Assembly (NCBI GenBank): GCA_030529545.1
Contig: JAUMWR010000002.1
Location: 113 to 64,112, forward strand
DNA length: 64,000 bases
Direction of reading: 5' to 3'
Source: Buchananella hordeovulneris
GTDB taxonomy: Bacteria; Actinomycetota; Actinomycetes; Actinomycetales; Actinomycetaceae
In this document: in pieces, positions 4,484 through 38,360 of the stretch
Numbering within the stretch: the stretch's first letter is position 1
How the letters are laid out: every line of letters starts with the position of its first letter
The notes under the pieces: generated by a model
The model's input: only the letters and a program-made list of their open reading frames with translations
What the model was told of the DNA's origin: nothing
The model's database searches: none
Made by a program: the position numbers and the translations under genes

Positions 4484-4496
4484 AGTCAGGCAGTGA

Positions 4497-18917: not shown

Positions 18918-22679
<3,762 letters not shown>

Positions 22680-23543: not shown

Positions 23544-23570
23544 ACAGCTAAGCGCTGGATCAGCGTTGGC

Positions 23571-25140: not shown

Positions 25141-25313
25141 CCCAACGCGGCGCGCAAGCAGCCGGCTCACGCGGACACAGAGCGCTTGCTTGGCCCTAGT
25201 GACGCGCCACGCGCGCGGCCAACAGGATCCCGCGGGCAGAGAGCACTCGGCCCAATGCCCGGCTCCTTCGGGCCGCCCGGCTCCGCCCTCCTCCAGCGCT
25301 GCAGAGACCGTGC

Positions 25314-26465
25314 TTAGACGCGCACCGGCTCCGCTTCGAGCTCGATACCGAACTTCGCCCGCACGCCGGCGACCACGGCCGCCGCCACCGCCTCCACGTC
25401 GGCCGCGCTCGCGCTGCCCCGGTTGGTGATGGCCAGCGAGTGCTTGGTGGACAAGCACGCCCGCCCCTCGGTGAGCTCCAGCCCAAAGCCGCGCTCAAAG
25501 CCGGCGTTGCTGATCAGCCACGCCGCCGACGTCTTCACCACGCCCGGCACCACCGGCCCCTGTACGCCGATGTTGGACGCCAGGGCACCATCGCGCACCT
25601 CGAAGCGCGGTGCCCCCTCCGGCAGGCCGGCGGCAACGTCGGCCGTCAACACCGGATTCAAGAAGAAAGAGCCGGCAGAGAACGTGTCCGGGTCGGCGTC
25701 GTCCAGCAACATCCCCTTGCCCCGGCGCAGCTCCAGCACTGCGGCGCGCACGTCCGCACTCGGGGCGCGCTCACCCAGCTCCACGCCCAGCTTGGCGGCC
25801 AGCTCCTTGTAGCGCACGGGAGCGGACAGGGAGGCGTGGCGCAGCTGCCAGTTAGTCGAGAGCACCACGTAGCGGCCCGTCGGGCCCCACTGCCCGCTCT
25901 GGCGGGAAGTCTTCAGCACCGAGGTGCGGTAGCCCAGCTCGAGCTCCCCCACCGCCAGCAGGCGAACCCGGCCCCGCTCGCGGTCAAAGACGCGCACGCT
26001 CGCCAGCGTCTGCGACACCTCGCTACCGTACGCCCCCACGTTCTGCACCGGCGCGGCGCCCACGGTCCCCGGGATGCCGGACAGAGCCTCCAGGCCCATC
26101 CAGTCCTCGCTCACCGCGCGGGCAACCAGCTCGTCCCACGGCAGACCCGCCGTGACCCGCAGGGAGACCCCGCCGCAGGAATCGTTGGCCTCCACCTCGA
26201 TCTCCTGGCGCGCATCGCGTAGCACCACGCCCGGGAAGTCAGCGTCGCTGGCCAGGATGTTAGAGCCGCCGCCCAACACCAGCAGGGGCGCGCCGGCGGC
26301 GTCGGCCTCCTTGATGGTGGCAACCATCTCCTCCTCGCTGGCCGCCTCCACGTAGGAGGCCACCGCGCCGCCCACACGCAGCGTGGTCAAATCCGCCAAG
26401 CGCGGGGCGCTCACCGAGCCAATCTGCGCGCGCAGGGACTTTACCGGGGGTACGACGTTGCTCAT
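25314..26465 (-). CDS. murB: UDP-N-acetylenolpyruvoylglucosamine reductase (MurB)
   Basis: Has an FAD-binding domain (…LRVGGAVASYVEA…LLVLGGGSNIL…) and MurB C-terminal motifs. The ATG overlaps the stop of the upstream MFS gene. Confidence 0.9.
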   Translation of the reverse strand: MSNVVPPVKSLRAQIGSVSAPRLADLTTLRVGGAVASYVEAASEEEMVATIKEADAAGAPLLVLGGGSNILASDADFPGVVLRDARQEIEVEANDSCGGVSLRVTAGLPWDELVARAVSEDWMGLEALSGIPGTVGAAPVQNVGAYGSEVSQTLASVRVFDRERGRVRLLAVGELELGYRTSVLKTSRQSGQWGPTGRYVVLSTNWQLRHASLSAPVRYKELAAKLGVELGERAPSADVRAAVLELRRGKGMLLDDADPDTFSAGSFFLNPVLTADVAAGLPEGAPRFEVRDGALASNIGVQGPVVPGVVKTSAAWLISNAGFERGFGLELTEGRACLSTKHSLAITNRGSASAADVEAVAAAVVAGVRAKFGIELEAEPVRV

Positions 26466-27748
26466 GACGCCACCTTAGCCGCGCCGCCCGGCTCACCGGC
26501 GCCCGGCTCACCGGCGCCCCGGCCCGCCGTGACCTCGCTGGGACGCAGCGGGCGGGCCGCACCCGAGAACAACAGGCCCACCGCCACCGGCAGCGCCAAC
26601 ACGCCCAGGGTGGGGCGGTAGCCGATGTACTCGGCCAGTTCGCCCAGCAGCGGCGGGCCCACCAGGAACGCGCCGTAGCCCAGCGTGGAGACCGCAGAGA
26701 TCGTGGCCGCCGCCTTCAGCGGATCGTCCCCCGCCGCGCCCAGTGCCAGCGGGAAGCCGAGCGCGCTGCCCGCGCCCCACGCCAGCGCTCCCACAAAGGC
26801 CAGCCACACCCACGGGGAGAGCACAAAGACCGTGACGCCCGCCAGGGCCAACACGAACGACAGGCGCAGCGCCCCCACGCGGCCCCGCTTGGCCACCAGG
26901 GCCGTGCCGGCAAACCGGACGCTGGTCATGCCGACCACGAAGATGCCGTAGCCCACCGCCGCGAGCGCGTTGGAGATCCCAAAGGCCTCGATGCTGGCCA
27001 GCGCCAGCCAGTCGGCCGCCGCGCCCTCCGTCAGTGCGATGCCCAGCAGCACCATGCCGAGCGCCCACGTGCGCTTCTCCCGCCAAGCGCGCGCCGAGCT
27101 GTAGTGGGGGTAATGCTTGCGCTCCTGCTTCTTGGGGCGCGGCTCATCCGGCAGGAAGTAGCGGATCGAGTACCAGATGGCCGGCACCGTGAGCGCCCCC
27201 AGGGCACCCACGTGCCACTGGACCGGGATGTGCAACGCGGAGGCCGCAGCGCCCAGGCCGGCGCCCGCCACCGTGCCCAGCGAGAACCCCCCGTGGAACT
27301 GGGGCATGCGCTCCTCCCCGCTGGTGCGGTCCACGTGGGCGCCGTGCATGTTGACCGCCACGTCGTAGAGACCAAAGCCGATGTTGACGACGAACAGCGC
27401 CCCGGCCACCGCCACCATCACGCCTGCGGCCGTGAGCCCCGCCGCAGCCGCGTAGCCGAGCGCGATCAGCGGGTAGAAGAAGGCCACCGCGCGGCGCACC
27501 CCGATGCGGGCGCTCACCGCCCCGGCGATCGGCAAAGTCGCAATCGAGCCCAGCGAGGCAACGAACATAATCCGGCCCAGCTGGGAGGCGGACAGGTCAA
27601 GGGCGTCGCGCACCGCCGGCAGGCGGCTCATCCACGAGGAGAACACCAGGCCGGGCCAGAAATAAGACAGGAACGTCACCCACTGGGTAAAGCGCATAGC
27701 CCGACTCACGGCGGGCTGCGGGGACGGCGGCTGCGGGGAATGACTCAC
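26462..27748 (-). CDS. MFS transporter
   Basis: This 428-aa protein has 12 predicted TM segments. Its C-terminus has the tandem repeat GAGEPGAGEPGG, and the DNA repeat is visible at 26480-26510. Confidence 0.8.
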   Translation of the reverse strand: MSHSPQPPSPQPAVSRAMRFTQWVTFLSYFWPGLVFSSWMSRLPAVRDALDLSASQLGRIMFVASLGSIATLPIAGAVSARIGVRRAVAFFYPLIALGYAAAAGLTAAGVMVAVAGALFVVNIGFGLYDVAVNMHGAHVDRTSGEERMPQFHGGFSLGTVAGAGLGAAASALHIPVQWHVGALGALTVPAIWYSIRYFLPDEPRPKKQERKHYPHYSSARAWREKRTWALGMVLLGIALTEGAAADWLALASIEAFGISNALAAVGYGIFVVGMTSVRFAGTALVAKRGRVGALRLSFVLALAGVTVFVLSPWVWLAFVGALAWGAGSALGFPLALGAAGDDPLKAAATISAVSTLGYGAFLVGPPLLGELAEYIGYRPTLGVLALPVAVGLLFSGAARPLRPSEVTAGRGAGEPGAGEPGGAAKVAS

Positions 27749-27876
27749 TCCCCCATGATTCCCCCTCAGGGGCTAGTCCCACAATTTGGGCAGGCGCGTC
27801 CAGGGCCGGTGGGGCGGCCGCGCGCCAGCGCGGCCGCAGCCAGCCCCGCTGCCCGCCTGGCCCAAACCGGCGGCTT

Positions 27877-28875
27877 TTAGCCCTCAGCCACCACTGCGGA
27901 AGCCCGGGACAGCACCGGCTTGCCCCCGCTGGTGACGTTCAAAGTCACCTTGCCGCCCTCGCCGCGCTCGCCGGAGATCAGCAGCTCAGCACCCTGCACC
28001 GGGTCCACCACCACCATGCCGGAGAACGAGGCGCGCAGCTCCTTGACCTTGCCACAGCCCGCGTAGCTCTCCACCGCAGATGCCACCAGGGCCAGCGTCA
28101 GCATCCCGTGCGCGATCACGCCCGGCAGACCCGCGCCCTTAGCCACCGCCGGGTTGTGGTGAATCGGGTTGAAGTCCCGCGACGCCCCTGCGTAACGCAC
28201 CAGGTCAGTCAGGCTCAGCACTACCCGGAAGGCAAAATCGGCGCCCTCCACCTCCACGGCTTCCAACTCCGGCGGCGTCAGGCTCCACTCCGCCAGGCTC
28301 TGCCCGCTGGCCTGCCACGGCGCCACGTGCTGCGCCTCCTGCGCCCCCTCCGGGGCCGCAGTGCCCTCCGCACTCTCCGGGCCGGCCGTGCCAGCGGCGG
28401 TCCCCTGCTCCCCCGCCCCGGCGGCGGGCGCCGGCGGCATCACCGCCAGCGTCGACTCGACCACCGCGGCCAAGCCGCGCGGCCCGTGTACCTCCGTCCG
28501 GGACGCCAGCGTGCGCAGCGGACCGCGCTCCACCAGGCGCTTAACCCCCGGCAGGGCGGTCAGCTCATCGCCGGCCAGGATCGGCTCGTGCAAGACAATG
28601 GACTCGCTGCCGTGCAACACCCGGGAAAAGTCCACACCCAACTCCGGGTCCGCGATCAGCACCGCAGCGGCGCGCTGCGCCACGACGGCGGCGAACGTGG
28701 GGGCGGCCGGCGGAACGTCGTCCCCCACCCCGCCAACCGGGGCGGGCTCCCCCATCCCAGGGGTGGCCTTCCCCCACGGGCGCGCCGTGGCGGTGTTGAA
28801 GAAAGCCAGGTGCTCGGCACCCACGTGATAGGAGATCGGGGCGTACTTGCCGGCTACTGCGTTGTCCATACCCAC
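27877..28875 (-). CDS. Fused double hotdog-fold (MaoC-like) dehydratase, HadA/HadB-like, with N- and C-terminal halves joined by an Ala/Gly-rich linker
   Basis: The N-terminal half is UPF0336/HadA-like. The C-terminal half carries MaoC dehydratase motifs (…YAGASRDFNPIHHNPAVAKGAGLPGVIAHGMLTL…). In Mycobacterium, hadABC lie next to rpmG. Confidence 0.8.
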   Translation of the reverse strand: MGMDNAVAGKYAPISYHVGAEHLAFFNTATARPWGKATPGMGEPAPVGGVGDDVPPAAPTFAAVVAQRAAAVLIADPELGVDFSRVLHGSESIVLHEPILAGDELTALPGVKRLVERGPLRTLASRTEVHGPRGLAAVVESTLAVMPPAPAAGAGEQGTAAGTAGPESAEGTAAPEGAQEAQHVAPWQASGQSLAEWSLTPPELEAVEVEGADFAFRVVLSLTDLVRYAGASRDFNPIHHNPAVAKGAGLPGVIAHGMLTLALVASAVESYAGCGKVKELRASFSGMVVVDPVQGAELLISGERGEGGKVTLNVTSGGKPVLSRASAVVAEG

Positions 28876-28973
28876 AGCCTAGTTACGCCCGGGCTCCCTC
28901 CGTCTTGCCGTCTCCCACCACACCCATCCCGCTGCACTGGTGGAATCCACCAAGTAAGTCCGGGAAGCAAGAG

Positions 28974-29013
28974 GGGCTCGGGGCCCGCGCCTTTCGTCGC
29001 GGACCCCGAGCCC
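28974..29013 (-). terminator. Candidate terminator downstream of the giant surface-protein gene
   Basis: A GGGCTCGGGGCCCGCG…CGCGGACCCCGAGCCC stem is followed on the minus strand by CTCTTGCTTCC. Confidence 0.5.
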
Positions 29014-29028
29014 ATTTGGAGCTAGCTA

Positions 29029-32000
29029 CTACTGCTCCTTACGGCGGCGCAGCATCAGCATGAACACGCCACCAGCCAGCAACGCGAGCGCGGCAGAACC
29101 CACCACAATCGCGTCGCTACCGGTCTTGGCCAGCTTGCCGCCCTTGCCGCCCTTGCCTGCAGACGGAGCCACAGAGGGCTGCCCAGCGGAGGGAGCCGGG
29201 GTCGGGGTGGCCGTGGGGCCGGGCACTACGACCTTGGTGTAGACGTTCTCGAACTTAATGGCCACAACCTGGTCCTTCGCCGCAATCTCTGCGGTCTGCG
29301 GGGCCTGGGGAGCCAGCGTGTAACCGGAGAGCGCAGCGGATGCGGCGTCCTCGGTCACCGTGCACAGGGTACCCACGCGGAGGTCCTTGGCCACCTCGAC
29401 AGCAACGCCATCGCCCTTGACCATCGCCTGGCCAGAGGCCTCGCCACAGGTCCAGGAGAACTTGAAGTCCTTGCCGGTAGCATCGGCGCCCTTGACGGTC
29501 TTGGCCAGGGTGAGAGAGCCAACGTGCGCGGTGTAAGTGTTGGCAGCCGCCACGACAACCGCAGCGCCCTTGTCAACGTCGAACTCCACCTTGCTGCCCG
29601 CAGTGACGACGCCGGCCGCAGTGAAGGCGGTGACCAGGTCGGTGTTAGCCACAGCCGCGTCAGCCTCAGTCACAACGCACTTACCAGTCGGGACCTCCTC
29701 CACGGTCTTGGACTGGCCAGCCTTCAGCTCGAAGGCGCCCTTCTTCTCTGCGCCGTCGACGCCGGTGCAGGTGTAGTCGAAGGAGAACGCCTTGTCCTTG
29801 GCCAGGTCGCTTCCGGTTCCCGCAACCGTCTTGGTCACCGTGAAGCTGCCCAGGTCGCGCACATAGGTGTTCACGAACGTAGCCTCGACCGGGCCGTCCT
29901 TGACGATGGTTACTTCCACCGGGGCCGGGGCGGCAAGGGTGAATCCGGTCTCGCTGGCGTTGGTGGCGTCCTCGGAGACCGTGCACTTGGTGCCGACGCG
30001 GAAGTTCTTGCCAACCGGCACGGCCACGCCATCGCCCTTAGCGGTCAGGATGCCGGACTCCCCACCACAGGTCCAGTTGAACGTGAAGTCCTTGGCGGCG
30101 ACGGAGGCAGGCCCACCGGAGACGGTCTTCTTCACCTGGAAGCTGCCCACGTGAGCGGTGTAGACGTTGTCCACCACCACGGCAGTAGTCTTGCCCTTGA
30201 TAATCGGGACGCCGATGAACTCGGTGGTGACTGCCTCACCGTCCACGGTGGAAACAGCGGTGAAGTCCGCATTGTCCACGGCGGTCTCGATCTCCTGCAG
30301 GCCACATGCCCCCACCGGGAGGTCGGAGAACGTCGCGGTCTTGCCGACCTCTACGGTGACCACACCCGAGGACTCGGTGCCATCCACGCCCAGGCAAGTC
30401 CAGTTGAACTTGAACTGCTTGCCAGCGGCCAGATCAGCGCCAGTGCCGCTGACCTTCTTCTCCAGGGTGAAGCCACCCTTGTCCTGGGCATAAGTGTTGG
30501 TCACGGTCACCAGCTTGGGCGCGCCCTCGGTGACGGTGAAGGTCTGCGCCACCGGCGCGGTCAGGGTGTAACCCAAGACCCCGGCGGTAGCAGCGTTCTC
30601 AGTCACCGTGCACTCGGTGCCAGTCGGGAACTGCTTGCCCGCCGCAACAGCGACCCCGTCGCCCTTAGCGGTAAGGGTGCCGCTCTCCTGGCCACACGTC
30701 CAGTTGAACGTGAAGTCCTTGTCAGCCACCTTGGCAGCGGCGATGCCGGCAACGGCCTTCTTCACCTCGAAGCTACCCATCTTGCGGGCGTAGGTGTTGG
30801 TGAAGGTAATCTCCGCCGGAGCGGCGCCCTCCACGATCTCAACGGTCTGCGCCGCAGGAGCGGTCAGCGTGTAGTTGTCGATGGCTGCGCTCGCGGCGTC
30901 CTCGGTGACGGAGCAGGAGCTGCCCACCGGGAACTGCTGGCCCGCCGCAACAGCGACCCCGTCGCCCTTAGCGGTAAGGGTGCCGCTCTCCTGGCCACAC
31001 GTCCAGTTGAACGTGAAGTCCTTGTCAGCCACTTCGGCAGCCGGCACGCCGGTGACAGCCTTCTTCACCTGGAAGGTAGCCATCTTGCGGGTGTAGGCGT
31101 TGGTGAAGGTGACAGCCTTCGTCTCGCCCTTGACGATCGCGATGGTCTGCGCCGGCGGCACGGACAGGTTGTATCCCGCGATGACGGCGCCGGCCGCATC
31201 CTCGGTGATGGTGCAGCTAGTGCCAGCGCGGAAGTCCTTACCTACCGCGACGGCCACGCCATCGCCCTTAACGGTGAGGTTGCCATTCTCCTGACCGCAG
31301 GTCCAGTTGAACGTGAAGTCCTTACCGGCAGGCTCTACGCCGGTAACGCTCTTGGCCACGGTGAACGTACCCACGTGAGCGGTGTAAACGTTCTCCACCA
31401 CCACGGCGGGGGACGTTCCCGGCTCGACTACAACGCCGATCGCCGGCGTCGTGACTGCCGCGCCGTCCACAGTCCGCACCACCCGCAAATCGGTGTTGGC
31501 GATCTCCGCGTCCCGTTCCTCGACTGCGCACGCGCCAGCGGGCACGTCGGTGAAGGTCTTGGTGGCGCCAGCCGCGAGCTTGAAAGTCTCGGTGGTCTCC
31601 GCCCCGTCCACGGAACGGCAGGTCAACTGGAAGTTGAACTCCTTGCCCGCAGCCAGGTCAGCACCAGTACCGCTGACCTTCTTCTGCACGGTGAAGTCAC
31701 CCTTGCCCACGGTGTAGGCGTTTGCAAAGGCAGCCTCGTGGTCATCGCCGGTGGCGATAGTGAAGGTCTGCGCTGCCGGGACGGTGAGCTCGTAGCCGCG
31801 CACCGCAGCGGCGGCAGCGTCCTCCGTCACCGTGCACTCGGTGCCAGTCGGGAACTGCTGGCCCGCCGCAACAGCGGCCCCGTCGCCCTTAGCAGTGATG
31901 GTGCCGCTCTCCTGGCCACACGTCCAGTTGAACGTGTAGTCCTTGGCCGCCGCCGCAGCAGCGGGGATGCCGGTAACCGTCTTCTTGACGTGGAAGGTGC

Positions 32001-34926
32001 CGGTCTGCTGGCTGTAAACGTTGGTAAAGCTGAGCTGAGTGTTGCCGTCCTTGGCGATCGGGATCTCCTGAACAAGCGGCTCGGTCAGGGTGTAACCCGG
32101 AATCTGTGCCGAGTCTGCCTTCTCACCCACGGTGCAGACGGTCCCGGCAGCAAACTGCCGGCCCGCCGGCACGGCAGTGCCATCGCCCCGGGCAACGATC
32201 TCTCCCTCGACTCCGCCACAGTTGTAGGTGAAGGTGTAGTAATTCGCGCTGGCGGTAGCCGGTCCGCCCTGGACCGTCTTCGCAACGGAGAAGGTGCCCT
32301 TGTGACCAGTGACCTCGTTGGTCACAACGACGTCCACCTTTTGGTCCTTCACCACCGTAACGTTGACAGAATCAGCAACGACCGGGGCGGCGTTACCTAC
32401 AGCGATCTTGGTGACCACGTCGGCGTTTGCCACGTTCTTTCCGGTCTCCGTCAACGTGCAGGTACCTACCGGCAGCCCAGTGAGGACCTTGGAGTTACCG
32501 CCAGTGAGGTTGAAGTCACCCCGGACAGGAGCCCCCTCAGCCGGGGTGCAGGTGTAGGAGAACTCGAACTCGGTCTGGGCCGCGAGAGCCGCGTCGGGAC
32601 CGGCAACTTCCTTGCGCACCTCGATAGAGCCCGCGTCCTTGGTGTACACGTTCTCGAACTCTGCAAGATTGACCTCGTTGGCCAGGATGGTGATGGTCTG
32701 CGCGGGCACGGGGGCCAGGCTGTAGCCCGGAATAATCGCGCTCACGCCTAACTCTGCCACCCGGCACTCATGTCCGACCGGAATCGCCGCGTTCACGTCG
32801 ACCGGCACGCCATTGCCCTTGACGGTGACCTCGTGAGACCTGCCGGGCTCGGCGTTAGGCTCCTGGCACTGGTAAACGAAGCGATAGTCCTTATCCGTGG
32901 CATCTACTGGTCCGCCCGTCACGCCCTTCTTGATCATGAAGGAGCCAGTCTGGCGCGTGTAGGCGTTGACGAACTCGAGGGCGGCGCCGTCCTCAGCAAT
33001 CGTCACCTGCTGCGGCTGTGGCAGGGCGGGGAGGTCGTAGTTCGGCAGTTGTGCCTGGTCCGCTACTTCCTCCACGGTGCATACGGTGCCCGGCAAGAAG
33101 GTCTCGTCAGAGATACCCTCCTCCCCGTCACCGTTGACGCGGAAGACGCCCTCGGATCCGCCGCAACTGTATGAGAACGCGAAGCGGTGGTTGGCGGCAC
33201 TGGCCGGGCCTCCCTCGACTCGCTTGATTACCTTGATCGGGTACTTGGGCACCGACCGCAAGCGGTTGGTGAGCTTGACCGCAGTGATCTTCTGGTCATT
33301 GATGGTGAAAGAGGCGCCCGGCGCACCGCCCACCTCGAAGGTGTGGGAATCCCAGACGTAACCTTCAGGCGCCTGGGCGGGAGCCGCGATCTCACGCAGC
33401 GTGACACGGGTGTTGGCCGGGAAGGTGACCGGGGCAGACGGGCCGTAGAAGGTGACCTTGCTGCCCACACGAGCACGCAGCTCTACGGTGCCCGTGACGT
33501 TGTCCTGGTTGAGGGTGCCGGGTGCTACCCAGTTCGGGTAGGTGCTTGCCGCAGCAGGCAGCGTGTAATCGGCGATAACGGGGAACTCCGCCCCGTCTGC
33601 AACCAGGGAGGCGCCGGGGCCGGCCACGAACTTGGTGACAGCGAAAGTGCCGTAACCAAGGGACATGGTTACATCAGAGGTAAAGGCCTGCGCAAAGGAG
33701 CGAGTCAGGTTCGCCTTAGCCAGGGTACCGTCCGCCACGATCTCATTGTCGTAGTTGAAGCCGGGCTTCAGCTCCGGCAGTTTCCTGCCGTCAGGAACAT
33801 CACAGGTTTCTGCGGCGCTAGAGCAAACCGAGTACTGCAGCGAGTAGTTGGCCTGCGTTGTGAAAGGACCGGTGATGGTGATGCGCGCAACCTGGCCGTC
33901 CGGGGTCATCTTGCCTAGCTCGACGTCAATAGAAAACTCGCCATCGGCCGTGGTGGTTGCCCCCGGCGCACCGGTATCCAGCAAGAGCCGCTGGGGGCCA
34001 GCAGGAGTGTTCTCGCGATAGAGGCTCCACTTTTCCGGGCCAAAGAAACGCTGGCCTGAACCTAGCTTGTCTGTGAAAGTGACGGAGTGCACCTGGGTGC
34101 CGTCGAACGCCTGGTCGTAACCCGCATCCTTCAGGTACTGGCCCAGCGTCTTGCTAGCCAACCCAAAGCCGATCGGAACGTTGTAGTTGATCTGCCGCAC
34201 GCCGGTACCGATGCCCTGAGAGCCCTTAGCAAAGCGGGAGGGAGCGAAGTTGAAGGGGTTGACCACCTTAGCCTTGATCCCACCGTTACCGGGCAGATCC
34301 ACCAGCACGGGGGAAGTTGCGCCGGTGAAGGTGAATGGGAGCGCTTCCTCCGTGGTGGCCTGGACGGCCTGGAGTTGGACGCTGACGTTTCCCTTCACGT
34401 CGCGCCAGCCACCGTCCATGAGCTCCTTGGCCTTCGCGTTGAAGGTACAGCGCACTTCCTGCGGCACTACTAGGCAGGTGCCGATTGCGGTCTCGGGAGA
34501 ACCGTCGCCATTGTGGTCGACCATCAGGGAGGGCGTGCCCAACCCACCGGCGGAGGTGATGGCCGACTTCAGCTGCGGGGGAATCGTTACCGCAAAGGAG
34601 TCCCCATCGTTGAGGGTCTGCCCCGCCTCCAGGTTCCAGGAAAAGGAGAACTTAGCCTTGTCCTCTACCGTGAGCTGGGAGTTGTCCGAGACCGGTTCAT
34701 CCCCAGCACCGAGCTTTTGGAGCTGGGTGTTGGAGAACTTGATGTGGGGATTGTCAGCGGCGCTCGCGTTGCCGGCCAGCGCCAACGTTCCCGTGAGCGC
34801 CATGGCGCCGGTCGCCACAAACGCCCAAACTCTGAGCGCGATGCCCGGGCTTTTCGCCTTGGCTGTCATGCTTTGCCTTTCGGTAGAGAGACCCGTGAAC
34901 CACTTTGGTGGCCGGGCACATTCCAT
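29029..34926 (-). CDS. Giant (1965 aa) cell-wall-anchored surface protein with an N-terminal signal peptide, a ~500-aa non-repetitive N-terminal region, about 15 tandem ~96-aa Cys-pair Ig/prealbumin-like repeats, and a C-terminal LAKTG sortase (class E, LAXTG) signal
   Basis: The N-terminus MTAKAKSPGIALRVWAFVATGAMALTGTLALAGNASA is a signal peptide. The repeat unit resembles …FTFNWTCGQESGTLTAKGDGVAVAAGQQFPTGTECTVTEDA…GYTLT.P.AQT…FTN.Y. The C-terminus KLAKTGSDAIVVGSAALALLAGGVFMLMLRRRKEQ is an LAXTG motif followed by TM and basic tail. A single uninterrupted ORF spans 5.9 kb. Confidence 0.9.
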   Translation of the reverse strand: MECARPPKWFTGLSTERQSMTAKAKSPGIALRVWAFVATGAMALTGTLALAGNASAADNPHIKFSNTQLQKLGAGDEPVSDNSQLTVEDKAKFSFSWNLEAGQTLNDGDSFAVTIPPQLKSAITSAGGLGTPSLMVDHNGDGSPETAIGTCLVVPQEVRCTFNAKAKELMDGGWRDVKGNVSVQLQAVQATTEEALPFTFTGATSPVLVDLPGNGGIKAKVVNPFNFAPSRFAKGSQGIGTGVRQINYNVPIGFGLASKTLGQYLKDAGYDQAFDGTQVHSVTFTDKLGSGQRFFGPEKWSLYRENTPAGPQRLLLDTGAPGATTTADGEFSIDVELGKMTPDGQVARITITGPFTTQANYSLQYSVCSSAAETCDVPDGRKLPELKPGFNYDNEIVADGTLAKANLTRSFAQAFTSDVTMSLGYGTFAVTKFVAGPGASLVADGAEFPVIADYTLPAAASTYPNWVAPGTLNQDNVTGTVELRARVGSKVTFYGPSAPVTFPANTRVTLREIAAPAQAPEGYVWDSHTFEVGGAPGASFTINDQKITAVKLTNRLRSVPKYPIKVIKRVEGGPASAANHRFAFSYSCGGSEGVFRVNGDGEEGISDETFLPGTVCTVEEVADQAQLPNYDLPALPQPQQVTIAEDGAALEFVNAYTRQTGSFMIKKGVTGGPVDATDKDYRFVYQCQEPNAEPGRSHEVTVKGNGVPVDVNAAIPVGHECRVAELGVSAIIPGYSLAPVPAQTITILANEVNLAEFENVYTKDAGSIEVRKEVAGPDAALAAQTEFEFSYTCTPAEGAPVRGDFNLTGGNSKVLTGLPVGTCTLTETGKNVANADVVTKIAVGNAAPVVADSVNVTVVKDQKVDVVVTNEVTGHKGTFSVAKTVQGGPATASANYYTFTYNCGGVEGEIVARGDGTAVPAGRQFAAGTVCTVGEKADSAQIPGYTLTEPLVQEIPIAKDGNTQLSFTNVYSQQTGTFHVKKTVTGIPAAAAAAKDYTFNWTCGQESGTITAKGDGAAVAAGQQFPTGTECTVTEDAAAAAVRGYELTVPAAQTFTIATGDDHEAAFANAYTVGKGDFTVQKKVSGTGADLAAGKEFNFQLTCRSVDGAETTETFKLAAGATKTFTDVPAGACAVEERDAEIANTDLRVVRTVDGAAVTTPAIGVVVEPGTSPAVVVENVYTAHVGTFTVAKSVTGVEPAGKDFTFNWTCGQENGNLTVKGDGVAVAVGKDFRAGTSCTITEDAAGAVIAGYNLSVPPAQTIAIVKGETKAVTFTNAYTRKMATFQVKKAVTGVPAAEVADKDFTFNWTCGQESGTLTAKGDGVAVAAGQQFPVGSSCSVTEDAASAAIDNYTLTAPAAQTVEIVEGAAPAEITFTNTYARKMGSFEVKKAVAGIAAAKVADKDFTFNWTCGQESGTLTAKGDGVAVAAGKQFPTGTECTVTENAATAGVLGYTLTAPVAQTFTVTEGAPKLVTVTNTYAQDKGGFTLEKKVSGTGADLAAGKQFKFNWTCLGVDGTESSGVVTVEVGKTATFSDLPVGACGLQEIETAVDNADFTAVSTVDGEAVTTEFIGVPIIKGKTTAVVVDNVYTAHVGSFQVKKTVSGGPASVAAKDFTFNWTCGGESGILTAKGDGVAVPVGKNFRVGTKCTVSEDATNASETGFTLAAPAPVEVTIVKDGPVEATFVNTYVRDLGSFTVTKTVAGTGSDLAKDKAFSFDYTCTGVDGAEKKGAFELKAGQSKTVEEVPTGKCVVTEADAAVANTDLVTAFTAAGVVTAGSKVEFDVDKGAAVVVAAANTYTAHVGSLTLAKTVKGADATGKDFKFSWTCGEASGQAMVKGDGVAVEVAKDLRVGTLCTVTEDAASAALSGYTLAPQAPQTAEIAAKDQVVAIKFENVYTKVVVPGPTATPTPAPSAGQPSVAPSAGKGGKGGKLAKTGSDAIVVGSAALALLAGGVFMLMLRRRKEQ
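30400..31400. repeat. Near-identical ~288-bp tandem DNA repeats inside the surface-protein gene (coordinates approximate)
   Basis: Antisense ORF fragments at 30608-30793 and 30875-31096 have nearly identical translations (…ATATPSPLAVRVPLSWPHVQLNVKSLSAT…), about 288 bp apart. Confidence 0.7.
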
Positions 34927-35027
34927 CGAAATATACGTGGTGTCGGGGCAAAGTTGAATAGGTTAGCCCGCCCACCGGGGCGCTGGCCGTTCTCGCTAGG
35001 TGCCTAGTTTTCCTCGGCAGTGCATGC

Positions 35028-35297
35028 CAAAGTTCTCCTGCCGCGTCGGCCCCGCCCGCGCGCCGTATGGCCCACTCCACACGATCTTGTGCTGCGGTTT
35101 TTGGCGCGCCTCTTTCTTTGACTCTGGTGGCCACCTCCACATGTTGAGCGCGCCGTGTTGCATGCATTGCCCGACGTTCTTTCCCGCCGCCCCGCTCCCA
35201 CCGATCCGCGCGCAGCTCGGCACTCGCGCGGAGTGGGCCTTTACGGTGTAGTCAACGCCTCTCGCCCCGCCCGCGCGGCACCAAATGCCGAATCTGT
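35028..35297. promoter_or_regulatory. Upstream region of the giant adhesin gene containing the inverted repeats GGCCCACTCC (35049-35058) and GGAGTGGGCC (35250-35259) around a ~190-bp segment. Each IR is adjacent to a direct copy of CCCCGCCCGCGCG (35030-35042 and 35285-35297).
   Basis: The repeats are read directly. Extended pairing CCGTATGGCCCACTCC vs GGAGTGGGCCTTTACGG. No recombinase gene is in the window. Confidence 0.5.
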
Positions 35298-35315
35298 TGG
35301 CGTTGGGGAAAACAA

Positions 35316-35343
35316 TTGGCCTGGGGGTCCACCCCCAGGCCAA
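35316..35343 (-). terminator. Second of two tandem terminator hairpins after rpmG (also insulates the adhesin promoter)
   Basis: Perfect 12-bp stem TTGGCCTGGGGG-tcca-CCCCCAGGCCAA. An outer GGCGTTGGGG/CCCAACGCC pairing is also present. The minus strand continues TTGTTTTCC. Confidence 0.55.
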
Positions 35344-35412
35344 CAATCTCACCCAACGCCAACAACTGCGGCGGTTTCACAACTCCAGCCCGACCCGGAT
35401 TTCCCTCCGCAT

Positions 35413-35454
35413 CCCGGAAAAACGACTTGGCCCCCGAGGAAAACCTCGGGGGCC
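35413..35454 (-). terminator. Intrinsic terminator of the tRNA-rpmG transcript
   Basis: The minus strand reads GGCCCCCGAGG-tttt-CCTCGGGGGCC followed by AAGTCGTTTTTCC. Confidence 0.75.
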
Positions 35455-35472
35455 ATAGTTTCGCCGAACTAC

Positions 35473-35643
35473 TCAGCGGGTCTCGCGGTGCGACGTCTTG
35501 GCGTTGCAACGCGGGCAGTACTTGTTAATCTCCAGGCGATCCGGCGTGTTACGACGGTTCTTCTTGGTGATGTAGTTGCGCTCCTTGCAGCCGCTGCAAG
35601 CCAGCGTGATCTTGGGGCGCACATCCGCGGACTTCGAAGCCAC
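35473..35643 (-). CDS. rpmG: 50S ribosomal protein L33 (56 aa, so absent from the ≥60-aa ORF track)
   Basis: The minus strand translates to (M)[55 protein letters not shown] with a GTG start. It has the C4 zinc-ribbon L33 signature. Synteny tyrT-thrT-metT-rpmG matches Mycobacterium. Confidence 0.9.
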
Positions 35644-35699
35644 GATTCCTCACTTCTTTCAAAATCCGGCCATATGGCCACTGTGGTCTACTTCAGTAG

Positions 35700-35773
35700 T
35701 AGCGAGGGCGGGGCTCGAACCCGCGACCTCACGATTATGAGTCGTGCGCTCTGACCAGCTGAGCTACCCCGCC
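35700..35773 (-). tRNA. tRNA-Met (CAU), elongator type, with no encoded CCA
   Basis: The minus strand reads GGCGGGGTAGCTCAGCTGGTCAGAGCGCACGACTCATAATCGTGAGGTCGCGGGTTCGAGCCCCGCCCTCGCTA. The anticodon loop is CTCATAA. The T-arm is GCGGG/CCCGC. The acceptor stem contains two G-U pairs. Confidence 0.85.
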
Positions 35774-35812
35774 ACGTTGAGTTACATCCTCCACTACTGG
35801 TGGCAAACTCAG

Positions 35813-35885
35813 AGCCCCGAAAGGGAATCGAACCCTTGACCTTCTCCTTACCATGGAGACGCTCTGCCGACTGAGCTATCGGGGC
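35813..35885 (-). tRNA. tRNA-Thr (GGU)
   Basis: The minus strand reads GCCCCGATAGCTCAGTCGGCAGAGCGTCTCCATGGTAAGGAGAAGGTCAAGGGTTCGATTCCCTTTCGGGGCT. The anticodon is GGT. Confidence 0.9.
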
Positions 35886-36014
35886 GGCGAGCAGAAACTT
35901 TACCGGACGTCTTTGGCATTTGCCAAATCGGAACTGTGTGGTTCCCGCCATACCCTGAACTTTCGTTCTGGGCGGGCGGACTTACGTCCGCCCACTCCGG
36001 ATTGCTCCGGAGCT

Positions 36015-36098
36015 TGGTGGCAGGTGAGGGATTCGAACCCCCGAAGCTTGCGCGACTGATTTACAGTCAGTTCCCTTTGGCCACTCGGGTAACCTGCC
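36015..36098 (-). tRNA. tRNA-Tyr (GUA), class II with a long variable arm and encoded CCA
   Basis: The minus strand reads GGCAGGTTACCCGAGTGGCCAAAGGGAACTGACTGTAAATCAGTCGCGCAAGCTTCGGGGGTTCGAATCCCTCACCTGCCACCA. Confidence 0.92.
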
Positions 36099-36264: not shown

Positions 36265-36762
36265 ATGGCCTCGGATTCCTCTTTCGACATCGTCTCCAAG
36301 GTTGACCGCCAGGAGGTGGACAACGCCGTGAACCAGACGGCCAAGGAGATTTCCACTCGCTACGACTTCAAGGGAGTGGGCGCCTCGATCACGCTCGCGG
36401 GTGACACTGTGACGATGGTCGCCAACTCGGCCGAGCGCGTGAAGGCGATCGTGGACGTGCTGGAGACCAAGCTGTTCCGGCGCGGCGTTTCCCTGAAGGC
36501 CCTTGACCTGGGGGACGGCGAGCCCAAGGCCTCCGGGAAGGAGTACCGCCTGGCTGGCGCGATCCGGGAGGGTCTGACGCAGGAAGTGGCGAAGAAGATC
36601 ACGAAGGTGATCCGCGACGAGGGCCCCAAGGGCGCCAAGGCCCTCATTCAGGGCGACGAGGTGCGCGTCTCCTCCAAGTCTCGCGACGACCTGCAGGCCG
36701 TGATCGCCCTGCTCAAGCAGCAGGACTTTGACGCCGCCCTGCAGTTCGTGAACTACCGCTGA
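36265..36762 (+). CDS. yajQ: YajQ family (UPF0234) nucleotide/cyclic-di-GMP-binding protein
   Basis: The 165-aa sequence [44 protein letters not shown]… matches the YajQ family. An AGGAG RBS precedes it. Confidence 0.85.
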
Positions 36763-36767
36763 CGCGC

Positions 36768-38360
36768 CTACCGGGCTTTTGGTGGCCGACGTTGCCGCCC
36801 GCCGCCCCCTCTTGCCGCCGGCTGCGCGAGCTGACGGGCCCAAGGGGGCACACAGGCCGTCCTTACCGTGGCAATCGCCCCCTGACGGGCCCGTAGGCCC
36901 CCAGAAAGACGTTTTGGCCCGCCACCCAGCGGGTGGGGGGCCAAAACGCTTGCGGGGGGGGGGGGCGAGAGCAGCGGTCCGGCCCACACCACGCCGCGCG
37001 AGCTCGCGGTCATGGCCTCGCGGGAGACCACCTTGACGCGCTCGCGCCCGGCGGCCTCGCCCAGGTTGCGCTCGTACTCATCCAGGGTGATCCAGCCGTC
37101 GGAGGTGGTGTACTTAACGCCCCTCTCCTCCAGCCAGGGCAGGAGGGTCGCCGCTCCCCCGCGCTCCACGCCGTCGCCAGCCACCACGCCCGAGTCGACG
37201 TCGGCCAGCAGGTTGGCAATGGTCTCCTGGGCGTCGGACTTGGTGGATCCAATCAGTCCCACCGGCCCGCGCTTGATCCAGCCGGTCGCGTAGAGGCCGG
37301 CCACGTTCTGGGCTCCCTCTGCGGGACTCTCCACTACTCGGCCGCCCATGTTGGGGACCAGTCCGCGCTTGGCGTCGTACGGCACACCCTCCACCGGGGA
37401 GGAGAAGTAGCCGATCGCGCGGTAGACCTGGGAGACGGGCCAGTCGGTCATCTCGCCGGTGCCCTCGACGTTGCCGTCGCCGGTCAGGCGGGTGCGCTCG
37501 GTGCGCAGGCCCACCACGCGCCCATCCTCCCCCAGTACCTCGACCGGGGACTCAAACAGGTGGATGTGGATGCGTCGCGGCGCGGTGCGCTCCTCCGGCT
37601 CCACCATCGCGTAGTCAGTGAGGGTCTTGACCACCATCTTGGTCTGCTTAGAGCTGGCGATCGCCGCCTGCGAGCCCTCGTCGAACTCCATGTCCTCCTC
37701 ACGCACCACTACGTCCACGCCGGGCACGTGGCCCAGCTCGCGCAGCTCCAGCGGGGTGAACTTCACCTGGGCAGGGCCGCGCCGGCCAAAGACGTGGACG
37801 TCGGTGACGGTCTTGCGGCGCAGCACCTCCTCCACGTTCGCGGGGATCTCGGTGACCATGAGGTCATCGACGTGCTTGGCCAGGATGCGTGCCACGTCCA
37901 GGCCGACGTTGCCTACGCCCAGGACGGCGACGTGCTCGCCCTCAATGTTCCACTCGCGCGGGTAGTCCGGGTGGCCGTCGTACCAGGCCACAAAGTCGGC
38001 GGCGCCGTAGCAGCCCTCCAGGTCCACGCCCGGAATCTTGAGCGGGGCGTCCAGGTCGGAGCCGGTGGCGATGATGACCGCGTCGTAGTGCTCGCGCAGC
38101 TGCTCGATCGTGACGTCCTTGCCCACCTCGATGTTGCCGATCAGGTGCACCTCGCCCTTGGCGATGATGCCGTAGAGGGCGTTGATGATCTGCTTGATGC
38201 GCGGGTGGTCGGGGGCCACTCCGTAGCGCACCAGCCCGTAGGGGGCGGGCAGGCGCTCGAAGATGTCGATCTTCACGTCCCTACCGGACTTGGAGAGGAT
38301 GTCAGCCGCGTAGATGCCAGCCGGGCCGGCACCCACCACTGCTACGTTCAAAACGCTCAT
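36768..38360 (-). CDS. fprA: FAD-dependent NADPH:ferredoxin (adrenodoxin-type) reductase, FprA-like, with a ~70-aa low-complexity C-terminal extension read through a C12 homopolymer
   Basis: The N-terminus MSVLNVAVVGAGPAGIYAADIL… is an FAD Rossmann fold, with an NADP domain and …YATGWIKRGPVGLIGSTKSDAQET…. The FprA homology ends around residue 460, at the poly-C-encoded PPPP. The ORF then continues to 530 aa. Confidence 0.8.
   Translation of the reverse strand: MSVLNVAVVGAGPAGIYAADILSKSGRDVKIDIFERLPAPYGLVRYGVAPDHPRIKQIINALYGIIAKGEVHLIGNIEVGKDVTIEQLREHYDAVIIATGSDLDAPLKIPGVDLEGCYGAADFVAWYDGHPDYPREWNIEGEHVAVLGVGNVGLDVARILAKHVDDLMVTEIPANVEEVLRRKTVTDVHVFGRRGPAQVKFTPLELRELGHVPGVDVVVREEDMEFDEGSQAAIASSKQTKMVVKTLTDYAMVEPEERTAPRRIHIHLFESPVEVLGEDGRVVGLRTERTRLTGDGNVEGTGEMTDWPVSQVYRAIGYFSSPVEGVPYDAKRGLVPNMGGRVVESPAEGAQNVAGLYATGWIKRGPVGLIGSTKSDAQETIANLLADVDSGVVAGDGVERGGAATLLPWLEERGVKYTTSDGWITLDEYERNLGEAAGRERVKVVSREAMTASSRGVVWAGPLLSPPPPASVLAPHPLGGGPKRLSGGLRARQGAIATVRTACVPPWARQLAQPAARGGGGRQRRPPKAR
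36910..36965. repeat. Near-perfect 18-bp inverted repeat (36910-36948) immediately followed by a G12 homopolymer (36954-36965), inside the 3' end of the fprA ORF
   Basis: CGTTTTGGCCCGCCACCC-agc-GGGTGGGGGGCCAAAACG, then GCTTGC, then GGGGGGGGGGGG. Confidence 0.9.

What the first reader, a model, noticed from the sequence alone, without database searches (positions are those of the whole stretch)
28876..35472. Giant repeat-rich LAXTG-anchored adhesin inserted into a conserved tyrT-thrT-metT-rpmG / had locus
In Mycobacterium the order tyrT-thrT-metT-rpmG-hadA-hadB is contiguous. Here the same tRNAs and rpmG (35473-36098) and a fused HadA/HadB-like hotdog gene (27877-28875) are separated by a 5.9-kb gene for a 1965-aa surface protein. 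That protein has a signal peptide and a ~500-aa unique N-terminal region. It then has about 15 tandem 96-aa repeats, each with a conserved Cys pair (FTFNWTCG…GTECTVTE), an Ig/prealbumin-like adhesin-stalk architecture. It ends in LAKTG plus a TM segment and RRRK, the class-E (housekeeping) sortase signal typical of Actinomyces. Several repeats are nearly identical at the DNA level with a 288-bp period around 30.4-31.4 kb. That favours repeat-number variation by recombination or slippage and assembly collapse. The gene is bracketed by its own terminator (28974-29013) and two tandem terminators (35316-35343 and 35413-35454) that insulate it from rpmG.
Basis: partly seen in the sequence, partly recalled or inferred. 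Interest (0 to 1): 0.55.

Follow-up and report, generated by a model that had tools for sequence, protein, structure and literature searches.

The report
Sortase-anchored Cna-like adhesin with long stalk
This is a real but ordinary gene for a very long cell-wall-anchored adhesin of an Actinomyces-family bacterium: a collagen-adhesin-like head on a stalk of 14 cross-link-type domains, sitting in a slot between rpmG and a dehydratase gene that is empty in most relatives.

Summary
The gene is real. It lies at 29029-34869(-), 1946 aa from the annotated start, and equals MDO4790980.1, "DUF5979 domain-containing protein", from a Buchananella-like MAG.

**Architecture**
- Signal peptide.
- Two-domain head; the AlphaFold2 model (pLDDT 89.7) best matches MSCRAMM ligand-binding regions: Cna, Cnm, UafA, Sdr/Clf.
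- 14 DUF5979 stalk domains (CnaB-like). All 14 keep the Lys/Glu/Asn isopeptide-type triad and 13 carry a Cys pair.
- LAKTG, a membrane-spanning segment and RRRK: a class-E sortase signal.

- There are 14 domains of two subtypes, 97-111 aa each, not 15 x 96 aa.
- There is no 288-bp period. TRF finds no array and domain DNA identity is 46-78%.
- The only exact tract is 93 bp, repeated 303 bp apart. A short-read contig breaks there.

**Locus**
- rpmG abuts had within about 200 bp in 40 of 44 informative loci, including two Actinomycetaceae.
- The B. hordeovulneris reference holds a two-component system in the same slot.
- A sister species carries the orthologous adhesin, with 7 stalk domains, directly upstream of had. 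So the insertion is lineage-specific but not unique to this genome.
- No mobile-element marks were found.

**Verdict:** new member of a known kind; low interest.

The parts
29029..34869 (-). Adhesin CDS, 1946 aa from the annotated start plus stop codon. The longest ORF extends to 34926 (1965 aa).
   Evidence: ORF list and translation. The exact sequence from 34869 is MDO4790980.1. A GAAAGG Shine-Dalgarno-like motif precedes that ATG.
34759..34869 (-). Signal peptide (37 aa): Lys/Arg n-region, hydrophobic core, ASA|AD cleavage site.
   Evidence: Read from the sequence. No predictor was run.
34252..34758 (-). Head domain 1 (ORF aa 57-225): beta-sandwich with an invariant Cys151/Cys160 pair and a weak Big_8 match.
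   Evidence: Pfam Big_8, E 7e-4, below cutoff. AF2 model. Invariant cysteines in the family alignment.
33655..34242 (-). Head domain 2: DUF7926 (CnaA-like), ORF aa 229-424. Lys234/Asp286/Asn394 are conserved in at least 90% of 32 family members. It also holds a Cys368/Cys375 pair.
   Evidence: Pfam, 106.5 bits against a cutoff of 33.5. Alignment. DUF7926 is listed as a CnaA-like isopeptide family in PMC12617251.
33253..33651 (-). Stalk domain 1: DUF5979-like without cysteines (ORF aa 426-558). It keeps the Lys/Glu/Asn triad.
29227..33243 (-). Stalk domains 2-14: 13 DUF5979 (CnaB-like) domains in the order A A B A A B A A A B A B A. Each has one Cys pair and the invariant Lys/Glu/Asn triad.
   Evidence: Pfam DUF5979, E 3e-205, 14 stretches. 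Local HMM boundaries. Alignment. AF2 di-domain model, pLDDT 95.2. Foldseek hits to Spy0128-type pilins, Spy0125, Cna B repeats and the Mobiluncus adhesin.
29032..29226 (-). Pro/Thr/Ala/Gly-Lys-rich wall-spanning spacer and cell-wall sorting signal. LAKTG is at 29119-29133, followed by a hydrophobic segment and RRRKEQ.
   Evidence: NCBIfam LAVTG-anchor model, 23.2 bits against a cutoff of 27.
30637..30729 (.). Copy 1 of the 93-bp exact direct repeat (in stalk domain 10). The short-read contig L001 ends at 30631.
30940..31032 (.). Copy 2 of the 93-bp exact direct repeat (in stalk domain 9), 303 bp (101 codons) from copy 1.
28974..29013 (-). Terminator-like hairpin 16 nt after the adhesin stop codon: 16-bp stem, 14 G-C pairs, weak T-tail.
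   Evidence: MFE -39.4 kcal/mol, z -4.4.
35428..35455 (-). Intrinsic-terminator-like hairpin directly after rpmG: 12-bp stem followed by GTCGTTTTT.
   Evidence: MFE -29.8 kcal/mol, z -4.7.
35287..35372 (-). Large 86-nt near-perfect hairpin between rpmG and the adhesin leader.
   Evidence: MFE -66.5 kcal/mol, z -9.2. Unique in the window and in the loci. No Rfam family.
35473..35643 (-). rpmG (ribosomal protein L33), the right-hand border of the variable slot.
   Evidence: Nucleotide homology with the B. hordeovulneris reference ends at 35472.
35699..36098 (-). tRNA-Tyr(GTA), tRNA-Thr(GGT) and tRNA-Met(CAT) cluster.
27877..28875 (-). Fused HadA/HadB-like (FAS1_DH_region + MaoC) dehydratase gene, the left-hand border of the slot.

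Best explanation
The gene encodes a monomeric, covalently wall-anchored fibrillar adhesin of the MSCRAMM / Cna type.

**Proposed mechanism**
1. The protein is exported through Sec using its signal peptide (inferred).
2. It folds outside the membrane. Fifteen domain-internal Cys pairs would form disulfides, and a Lys-Asn isopeptide bond would form in each CnaB-like stalk domain and in the CnaA-like head domain. These bonds are inferred from conserved triads and from family knowledge.
3. A class-E housekeeping sortase encoded elsewhere in the genome cleaves LAKT|G and links the protein to peptidoglycan (inferred).
4. The 14 stalk domains form a rigid rod resistant to proteases and pulling force. 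At roughly 4 nm per CnaB-like domain (my estimate, not measured here) the rod would be roughly 50 nm long.
5. The rod holds a two-domain Cna-like head away from the wall, where the head binds a host or partner-cell ligand. That ligand is unknown; collagen-like or other extended peptide ligands are the analogy.

**Genomic history**
- The gene fills a slot between rpmG and had that was contiguous ancestrally.
- The insertion is shared with at least one sister species.
- The stalk has since doubled from 7 to 14 domains by internal duplication of A and B units.
- The 93-bp identity tract is a footprint of recent recombination or gene conversion between neighbouring domains.
For: **Domain content**
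- DUF5979 x14 (E 3e-205) and DUF7926 (E 2e-30).
- PMC12617251 classifies DUF5979 as CnaB-like with a Lys/Glu/Asn triad (representative 4BUG) and DUF7926 as CnaA-like with a Lys/Asp/Asn triad.
- Lys, Glu and Asn are invariant in all 14 stalk domains, and the Cys pair is present in 13.
- The triad columns align with the Spy0128 isopeptide triad (weak, E 0.16).
- Head residues K234, D286 and N394 are at least 90% conserved.
- The mature protein has 30 cysteines, forming 15 intradomain pairs.

**Structure**
- The head model has pLDDT 89.7.
- Foldseek against the PDB returns only MSCRAMM ligand-binding regions at the top: UafA (2e-14), Cna 2F68/2F6A (TM 0.62-0.64 on the target), then Cnm, SdrD, ClfB, SdrE, RspB, SdrG and Ace.
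- The stalk di-domain model has pLDDT 95.2. Its best matches are Spy0128-type pilins, Spy0125, Cna B repeats and a Mobiluncus adhesin with disulfide and isopeptide cross-links.

**Anchor**
- LAKTG, a membrane-spanning segment and RRRK.
- LAXTG is the class-E sortase signal (PMC5148588).
- Of the 92 head homologues (out of 134) that show a sorting motif, 65 use LAxTG.

**Family**
- An exhaustive phmmer search finds 134 clusters at 50% identity with the same head plus 0-14 stalk domains.

**Locus**
- rpmG and had are no more than about 200 bp apart in 40 of 44 loci.
- The gap is 25-31 bp in two Actinomycetaceae.
- The orthologue next to had in L085 has 7 stalk domains.
- B. hordeovulneris has a two-component system in the slot.
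- Homology breakpoints lie at 35472 and inside had.
Against: - No experimental data exist. Ligand binding, disulfides, isopeptide bonds and sortase dependence are all inferred.
- Model coordinates could not be inspected, so Lys-Asn and Cys-Cys distances were not measured.
- No sortase is present in the window.
- The NCBIfam anchor model is below its cutoff.
- Sequence identity to solved MSCRAMMs is only 9-14%, and there is no PDB sequence hit.
- The L085 contig ends 671 bp upstream of the orthologue. rpmG adjacency is therefore not shown on that side.
Confidence: 0.85

Rival explanations
1. It is a pilus subunit (tip or shaft pilin) polymerised by a class-C sortase, rather than a monomeric wall-anchored adhesin.
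For: The best structural matches of the stalk are S. pyogenes major pilins and pilus adhesins. One homologue is named 'T surface-antigen of pili' by a source.
Against: - No sortase gene or other pilin gene lies in the slot or the 64-kb window; there is no TLxTC motif and no other sorting-signal protein.
- The signal is LAxTG, not the LPxTG used by pilin-specific sortases (PMC5148588).
- No YPK pilin motif is visible in the sequence.
- The size (1946 aa, 14 stalk domains) is typical of fibrillar adhesins rather than pilins.
Confidence: 0.04
2. The gene is real, but the stalk copy number in this MAG is an assembly artefact: collapse or expansion at the repeated domains.
For: - A 93-bp exact repeat lies 303 bp from its partner, and a 34-bp exact repeat is also present.
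- An independent k-mer assembly of a public run is 100% identical to window 20061-30631 and stops six bases before the 93-bp tract.
- A mis-join across the tract would remain in frame.
Against: - Outside the 93-bp tract all domains differ by at least 22% at the DNA level. Ordinary 150-bp reads can therefore be placed uniquely.
- The frame, domain boundaries and A/B order are regular.
- At most the domain 9/10 pair could be affected, that is plus or minus one domain.
Confidence: 0.12
3. The adhesin gene was ancestral at this position for the whole Buchananella clade and was replaced by a two-component system in B. hordeovulneris, rather than the two cargos arriving by independent insertions.
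For: - The window and the L085 lineage share the adhesin next to had.
- The fused had gene is shared by the window, L085, L004 and B. hordeovulneris. This groups them against relatives with split hadA/hadB and an empty slot.
Against: - No remnant of the adhesin is found in L002, and no two-component-system remnant is found in the window slot.
- With only three lineages, the order of events cannot be resolved.
Confidence: 0.3
4. It is a non-adhesive surface protein, such as a spacer, a shield or an enzyme scaffold. On this reading the Cna-like head has no host ligand.
For: No ligand is known. The head is only 9-14% identical to characterised MSCRAMMs.
Against: - All top structural matches of the head are ligand-binding adhesin regions.
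- No enzymatic Pfam domain is detected.
- The head-plus-stalk-plus-anchor architecture is the defining pattern of fibrillar adhesins (PMC12617251).
Confidence: 0.07

Closest known systems
Staphylococcus aureus Cna and relatives (Cnm, Ace, RspB): collagen-binding MSCRAMMs
   Same: - A two-domain IgG-like head. The best Foldseek TM-scores are to Cna (0.62-0.64 normalised by target).
- A head domain of CnaA type with a Lys/Asp/Asn triad.
- A stalk of CnaB-type repeat domains.
- A C-terminal sortase signal.
   Different: - Only 11-14% sequence identity.
- The stalk domains belong to DUF5979 rather than Cna_B, and each carries an extra Cys pair.
- There are 14 stalk domains, against 1-4 B repeats in Cna (the Cna number is from my knowledge).
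- The signal is LAKTG (class E) rather than LPXTG (class A).
- The ligand is unknown.
Pfam DUF5979 (PF19407) / DUF7926 (PF25548) proteins of Actinomycetota, as catalogued in the isopeptide-bond survey PMC12617251
   Same: Direct membership: both models score far above their cutoffs, and the predicted isopeptide triads are conserved. The nearest homologues come from Arachnia propionica, Schaalia suimastitidis, Actinomyces spp., Propionibacteriaceae and Corynebacterium felinum.
   Different: It has the largest number of stalk domains among the 134 representatives of the head family: 14, with the next at 13 and 12. It forms a singleton cluster at 90% identity.
Mobiluncus mulieris adhesin (PDB 5U5O/5U6F), with disulfide, isopeptide and ester cross-links
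   Same: It comes from the same bacterial family as judged by organism name. Its stalk-type domains combine a disulfide with an isopeptide bond, and it appears among the structural hits of the stalk model (E 3e-6).
   Different: No ester-bond (Thr-Gln) motif was looked for or shown here. The TM-score is low (0.38), and the head is different.
Streptococcus pyogenes Spy0128 major pilin
   Same: It is the best structural match of the stalk di-domain (E 2e-9). It is also the best, though weak, PDB profile hit, with the Lys, Glu and Asn columns aligned.
   Different: Spy0128 is a pilin polymerised by a class-C-type sortase. It has two domains only and no Cys pairs.
Class-E sortase substrates of Actinobacteria (Streptomyces chaplins; Actinomyces oris LAXTG surface proteins)
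   Same: An LAxTG motif followed by a hydrophobic segment and a basic tail (PMC5148588).
   Different: The substrate protein families are unrelated. The cognate sortase was not observed here.

Membership tests
Pfam DUF5979 (CnaB-like, transthyretin clan) | HMM score above the gathering cutoff (25 bits) | tested here: met
   667.5 bits, 14 stretches
Pfam DUF5979 (CnaB-like, transthyretin clan) | Lys (first strand) / Glu / Asn (last strand) isopeptide triad | tested here: met
   K, E and N are invariant in all 14 domains. The triad is defined in PMC12617251.
Pfam DUF5979 (CnaB-like, transthyretin clan) | CnaB-like beta-sandwich fold | tested here: met
   AF2 model, pLDDT 95.2. Foldseek hits to Spy0128, Spy0125 (4BUG) and Cna B repeats.
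Pfam DUF5979 (CnaB-like, transthyretin clan) | The isopeptide bond and the disulfide actually form | not testable with these tools
   Model coordinates are not exposed. This needs mass spectrometry or crystallography.
Pfam DUF7926 (CnaA-like) | HMM score above the cutoff (33.5 bits) and a Lys/Asp/Asn triad | tested here: met
   106.5 bits. K234, D286 and N394 are at least 90% conserved in 32 homologues.
MSCRAMM (two tandem IgG-like domains in the ligand-binding region plus a wall anchor) | Two adjacent IgG-like (DEv-IgG / CnaA-type) domains forming the head | tested here: met
   Predicted structure only. The top 30 PDB hits are MSCRAMM A regions.
MSCRAMM (two tandem IgG-like domains in the ligand-binding region plus a wall anchor) | Ligand binding by a dock-lock-latch or collagen-hug mechanism | not testable with these tools
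   No ligand is known and the latch strand was not analysed.
Class-E sortase substrate | A C-terminal LAxTG motif, a hydrophobic segment and a positively charged tail | tested here: met
   LAKTG-SDAIVVGSAALALLAGGVFMLML-RRRKEQ. Motif definition: PMC5148588.
Class-E sortase substrate | A cognate class-E sortase in the genome | not testable with these tools
   No TLxTC-containing ORF occurs in the 64-kb window. The rest of the genome is not available.
Class-E sortase substrate | Match to a curated anchor-domain model (NCBIfam NF058582, LAVTG) | tested here: inconclusive
   23.2 bits against a cutoff of 27
Gram-positive pilin | Adjacent class-C sortase and partner pilin genes; a pilin (YPK) motif | tested here: not met
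   The slot holds a single gene, there is no sortase motif in the window, and no YPK motif is visible.
Tandem-repeat contingency locus (slippage-prone) | Head-to-tail DNA repeats of high identity | tested here: not met
   TRF reports 0 arrays. Domain DNA identity is 46-78%. Only one 93-bp exact tract exists.
tRNA-associated genomic island | Integrase, flanking direct repeats or a tRNA-fragment duplication, and atypical composition | tested here: not met
   - There is no integrase; the slot holds a single gene.
- No shared 10-mers or longer occur between the flanks.
- rpmG lies between the tRNAs and the gene.
- GC is 63.8% against 66-72% in the flanks, and GC3 is 0.80 against 0.88-0.93 in the flanks. 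That is a modest shift and lies within the window's own range.

The most novel reading that the evidence does not exclude
The rpmG-had junction may be a recurrent, element-free integration hotspot in the Buchananella clade. Unrelated cargo has landed precisely at the rpmG stop codon: an adhesin here and a HisKA_3/LuxR two-component system in B. hordeovulneris. On this reading the unique 86-nt hairpin (35287-35372) would be a functional part of the junction, either an insulator or a recombination site. The doubling of the stalk from 7 to 14 domains would be an adaptive change in reach rather than neutral drift.
Probability: 0.12. Interest if true: 0.35.

Novelty: new member of a known kind. Interest (0 to 1): 0.2.

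Why it matters
**Limited wider interest**
- The gene adds one more very long example to a catalogued class: fibrillar adhesins of Actinomycetota with CnaB-like isopeptide stalk domains and LAxTG anchors.
- It could be useful as a candidate colonisation factor of a Buchananella-like organism. This genus name includes an agent of canine actinomycosis (my knowledge).
- It is also a clean example of stalk-length evolution: 7 versus 14 domains in orthologues at the same locus.

**Practical value**
- The repeats are diverged, not near-identical. Assembly risk is therefore confined to one 93-bp tract.
- The 'insertion' is lineage-level and not strain-level.

Tried and rejected
1. **Exact-protein look-ups.** Look-ups of rpmG and of the 332-aa Had ORF found nothing. 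The cause was different start-codon calls; the 330-aa version exists.
2. **Word-indexed homology search with the 540-aa head.** It returned nothing, not even the protein itself. I rejected it as a false negative once the exact look-up and the exhaustive phmmer search found the protein and 134 clusters.
3. **The single genome-contig scan with a MaoC alignment.** It was still usable for rpmG-had adjacency statistics. Close relatives had to be reached through MurB homologues.
4. **PDB sequence search with the full protein.** No hit.
5. **Rfam.** At gathering threshold only tRNAs were found. At E<=1 on the 5' intergenic region only chance-level hits appeared.
6. **Searches for further copies of the large hairpin.** None in the window or the loci.
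7. **Flanking direct repeats or tRNA-fragment duplications around the slot.** None.
8. **Strain-level copy-number variation.** The 1440-aa member of the sister-species cluster looked like a candidate. Its extra 117 aa come from an upstream start call, not from an extra domain.
9. **Pilin reading.** Rejected; see the rival explanations.
Full report
**1. What is in the sequence**

The minus strand carries one uninterrupted ORF at 29029-34926, 1965 aa. The version starting at the second Met (34869; 1946 aa) is already in public databases. It is MDO4790980.1, [quoted passage not shown], and forms a singleton cluster at 90% identity.

Upstream on the same strand lie:
- tRNA-Tyr, tRNA-Thr and tRNA-Met (36098-35699);
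- rpmG (35643-35473).

Downstream lies a fused FAS1_DH_region + MaoC (HadA/HadB-like) gene at 28875-27877. It is followed by an MFS transporter, murB, adenosine deaminase, L25, pth and mfd.

On the other side of the tRNAs are yajQ, a Pyr_redox_2 protein, a polyprenyl synthase and the nuo operon. This is core chromosome.

The MAG's species label is loose. MurB is 69% and MaoC 51% identical to the B. hordeovulneris reference, and shared genes are 72-81% identical at the DNA level.

**2. Anatomy of the protein**

Pfam gives the following:

| Family | Score | Region (ORF aa) |
|---|---|---|
| DUF5979 | E 3e-205, 14 stretches | stalk |
| DUF7926 | E 2e-30 | 229-424 |
| DUF7601 | overlapping partial match | 1076-1123 |
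| Big_8 | sub-threshold | 87-169 |

A local HMM built from the repeats places the domain borders. There are 14 stalk domains between ORF aa 426 and 1900.

- The first domain (426-558) has no cysteines.
- The other 13 each have one Cys pair.
- They fall into two subtypes. Subtype A is 97-105 aa, with motifs FTFNWTCG...GTxCTVTE. Subtype B is 110-111 aa.
- The order is A A B A A B A A A B A B A.
- Lys (F-x-V-x-K), Glu (C-x-V-x-E) and Asn (N-x-Y) are invariant in all 14 domains.
- The mature protein has 30 cysteines, all in 15 intradomain pairs.
- The C-terminus is a Pro/Thr/Ala spacer, GKGGKGGK, LAKTG, a 23-residue hydrophobic segment and RRRKEQ.

**3. Repeats at the DNA level**

- Tandem Repeats Finder finds no array.
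- Copy spacings are 300, 303, 321-330 and 621 bp, not 288 bp.
- Pairwise domain identity is 46-78% for DNA and 20-69% for protein.

The exception is one perfectly identical 93-bp tract: 30637-30729 = 30940-31032, spaced 303 bp apart, which is exactly 101 codons. The background identity between these two domains is 77%. A 93-bp perfect tract is therefore far beyond chance and looks like a recent gene-conversion or unequal-crossover footprint (inference).

An independent k-mer assembly of a public run is 100% identical to window 20061-30631 and ends six bases before this tract. The practical assembly risk is thus real but confined to the domain 9/10 pair.

**4. Fold and family**

A 2025 survey of intramolecular isopeptide bonds (PMC12617251) lists:
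- DUF5979 as a CnaB-like, transthyretin-clan domain with a Lys/Glu/Asn triad (representative: Spy0125, PDB 4BUG);
- DUF7926 as a CnaA-like domain with a Lys/Asp/Asn triad;
- DUF7601 as CnaB-like.

The survey also notes that disulfides accompany isopeptide bonds in 41% of such domains in Actinomycetota.

The window protein fits these descriptions.
- A profile of its 14 repeats hits the Spy0128 C-domain best among PDB sequences. The hit is weak (E 0.16), but the three triad residues are aligned.
- An AF2 model of an A+B di-domain has pLDDT 95.2.
- Foldseek returns Spy0128-type pilins (E 2e-9), the B. anthracis TIE protein, PitA/PitB, SdrD B repeats, the Mobiluncus mulieris adhesin with disulfide, isopeptide and ester cross-links, Spy0125 and Cna B repeats.

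For the head I aligned 32 homologues. The AF2 model of ORF aa 57-561 has pLDDT 89.7. Its PDB matches are exclusively MSCRAMM ligand-binding regions at the top:
- UafA (2e-14);
- Cna 2F68/2F6A, with the best TM-scores, 0.62-0.64 on the target;
- Cnm, SdrD, ClfB, SdrE, RspB, Bbp, SdrG and Ace.

In the head, K234, D286 and N394 (ORF numbering) are at least 90% conserved. Cys151 and Cys160 are invariant.

**5. The wider family**

The word-indexed search with the head failed even to find the protein itself. I therefore disregard that negative result.

The exhaustive phmmer search against 1.84 billion representatives found 134 clusters with E<=1e-3, of which 56 reach E<=1e-30. These proteins share the about 540-aa head and then carry 0-14 DUF5979 domains.

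Most end in LAxTG: LARTG 32, LAKTG 10, LASTG 6, LAQTG 5. A minority end in LPxTG.

Named members come from Arachnia propionica, Schaalia suimastitidis, Actinomyces spp., Propionibacteriaceae, Actinomycetaceae MAGs and Corynebacterium felinum. The window protein has the most stalk domains of all representatives.

**6. The locus**

- In 40 of 44 loci where both genes are detectable, rpmG ends within about 200 bp of the had start.
- In an uncultured relative found by MurB similarity (62%; L088/L089) and in Bowdeniella nasicola (L090), the order is Pyr_redox_2 - M48 - yajQ - rpmG - hadA - hadB - (MFS) - murB. The rpmG-had gap there is 25-31 bp.
- Arcanobacterium pluranimalium has rpmG directly followed by murB.
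- The window has 6.6 kb between rpmG and had.
- The B. hordeovulneris reference has 2.8 kb holding a HisKA_3 sensor kinase and a LuxR-type response regulator.
- Nucleotide homology between the window and that reference stops at 35472, the rpmG stop codon, and resumes inside had.

However, the closest head homologue, P0023, sits immediately upstream of the same MaoC - MFS - murB - adenosine deaminase series in contig L085. P0023 is 61% identical over the head, has the same GKGGKLAKTGSDAIVVGS tail, and is 1323 aa with 7 Cys-containing stalk domains. In L085 MaoC is 74% and MurB 82% identical to the window's proteins. That is an orthologue in a sister species, so the acquisition pre-dates the window genome.

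More distant homologues (48-49%) lie at unrelated loci together with paralogues.

I found no integrase, no flanking direct repeats of 10 bp or more and no tRNA-fragment duplication. GC is lower in the gene: 63.8% against 72% and 66.5% in the flanks, with GC3 0.80 against 0.88-0.93. Other genes in the window also have GC3 of 0.80-0.82, so this is only a weak hint of foreign origin.

**7. Stalk evolution**

P0023 has the order A A B A A B A. The window protein has A A B A A B A A A B A B A, so six additional domains arose by internal duplication of A and B units.

Four independent contigs of the sister species all carry 7 domains. One apparently longer member differs only by an upstream start call. 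Strain-level copy-number variation is therefore not observed; species-level variation is.

**8. Hairpins**

- 28974-29013 is a 16-bp GC-rich hairpin (z -4.4) right after the adhesin stop codon.
- 35428-35455 is a 12-bp hairpin followed by a T-run (z -4.7) right after rpmG.

Both are plausible terminators.

It is unique in the window and in 92 fetched loci and matches no Rfam family. Its role is unexplained.

No sigma-70-like promoter was detected by the simple scan. That scan is not suited to high-GC actinobacteria.

**9. Mechanism**

Shown:
- domain families, conserved triads and Cys pairs;
- predicted folds;
- the sorting signal;
- synteny.

Inferred from family knowledge:
- Sec export;
- oxidative folding with one disulfide per domain;
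- autocatalytic Lys-Asn isopeptide bonds in the stalk and in the CnaA-like head domain;
- cleavage at LAKT|G and attachment to peptidoglycan by a class-E housekeeping sortase encoded elsewhere (PMC5148588);
- projection of the Cna-like head on a rigid stalk for ligand binding.

The ligand is unknown.

**10. Verdict**

This is a well-formed member of a catalogued class, with every domain assignable to an existing Pfam family and a published structural interpretation. The features beyond the ordinary are minor: a record stalk length within its head family, the 7-versus-14-domain orthologue pair, a variable slot at the rpmG stop codon with different cargo in a neighbouring species, and one unexplained large hairpin.

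Novelty: new member of a known kind. Interest: 0.2.

Noticed in passing
window 35287-35372 (-): An 86-nt near-perfect extended hairpin lies between the rpmG terminator and the adhesin leader (RNA MFE -66.5 kcal/mol, z -9.2). It is unique in the window, absent from all fetched loci, and has no Rfam match. Its function is unknown.
   Followed up: partly
L002 (B. hordeovulneris GCA_003858505.1) 490-5767, compared with window 36760-36961: The reference genome carries an extra block of about 5.5 kb between the Pyr_redox_2 gene and yajQ that the window lacks. The block holds an M48 peptidase, OTCase, an amino-acid permease, a PAD_porph agmatine deiminase and a TetR regulator. Both sides of the tRNA-rpmG cluster are therefore variable.
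   Followed up: partly
L002 7945-9881: In the B. hordeovulneris reference the rpmG-had slot holds a HisKA_3 sensor kinase and a LuxR/GerE response regulator instead of the adhesin. The window has only a distant (34%) response-regulator paralogue at 9835-10353.
   Followed up: partly
window 27877-28875; L088 7894-8780; L090 5978-6851: The HadA/HadB-like dehydratase is a single fused gene in the window, L085, L004 and B. hordeovulneris. It is two genes (157+138 aa) in other Actinomycetaceae and is absent in Arcanobacterium pluranimalium. The fusion is thus a marker for the Buchananella clade.
   Followed up: partly
whole window: The MAG is labelled Buchananella hordeovulneris. However, MurB is 69% and MaoC 51% identical to that species' reference, and shared genes are 72-81% identical at the DNA level. 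It is probably a different species.
   Followed up: no
window 29524-32751 (+): A 1075-aa antisense ORF runs across the stalk repeats. Its GC pattern and the strong Pfam hits on the minus strand indicate a high-GC shadow ORF, not a gene.
   Followed up: no
tool behaviour: The word-indexed protein search returned no hit for the 540-aa head, although the identical protein is in the collection. Negative results from that tool on Ala/Gly/Thr-rich queries should not be trusted.
   Followed up: yes
L086 381-6497 and L087 9931-16904: More distant head-family members occur as clusters of 2-3 paralogous adhesin genes mixing DUF7926, DUF5979, SdrD_B, CLIPPER/DUF11 and SpaA domains. They lie at loci unrelated to rpmG. 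L087 comes from a Propionibacteriaceae MAG; the source of L086 is unnamed.
   Followed up: no
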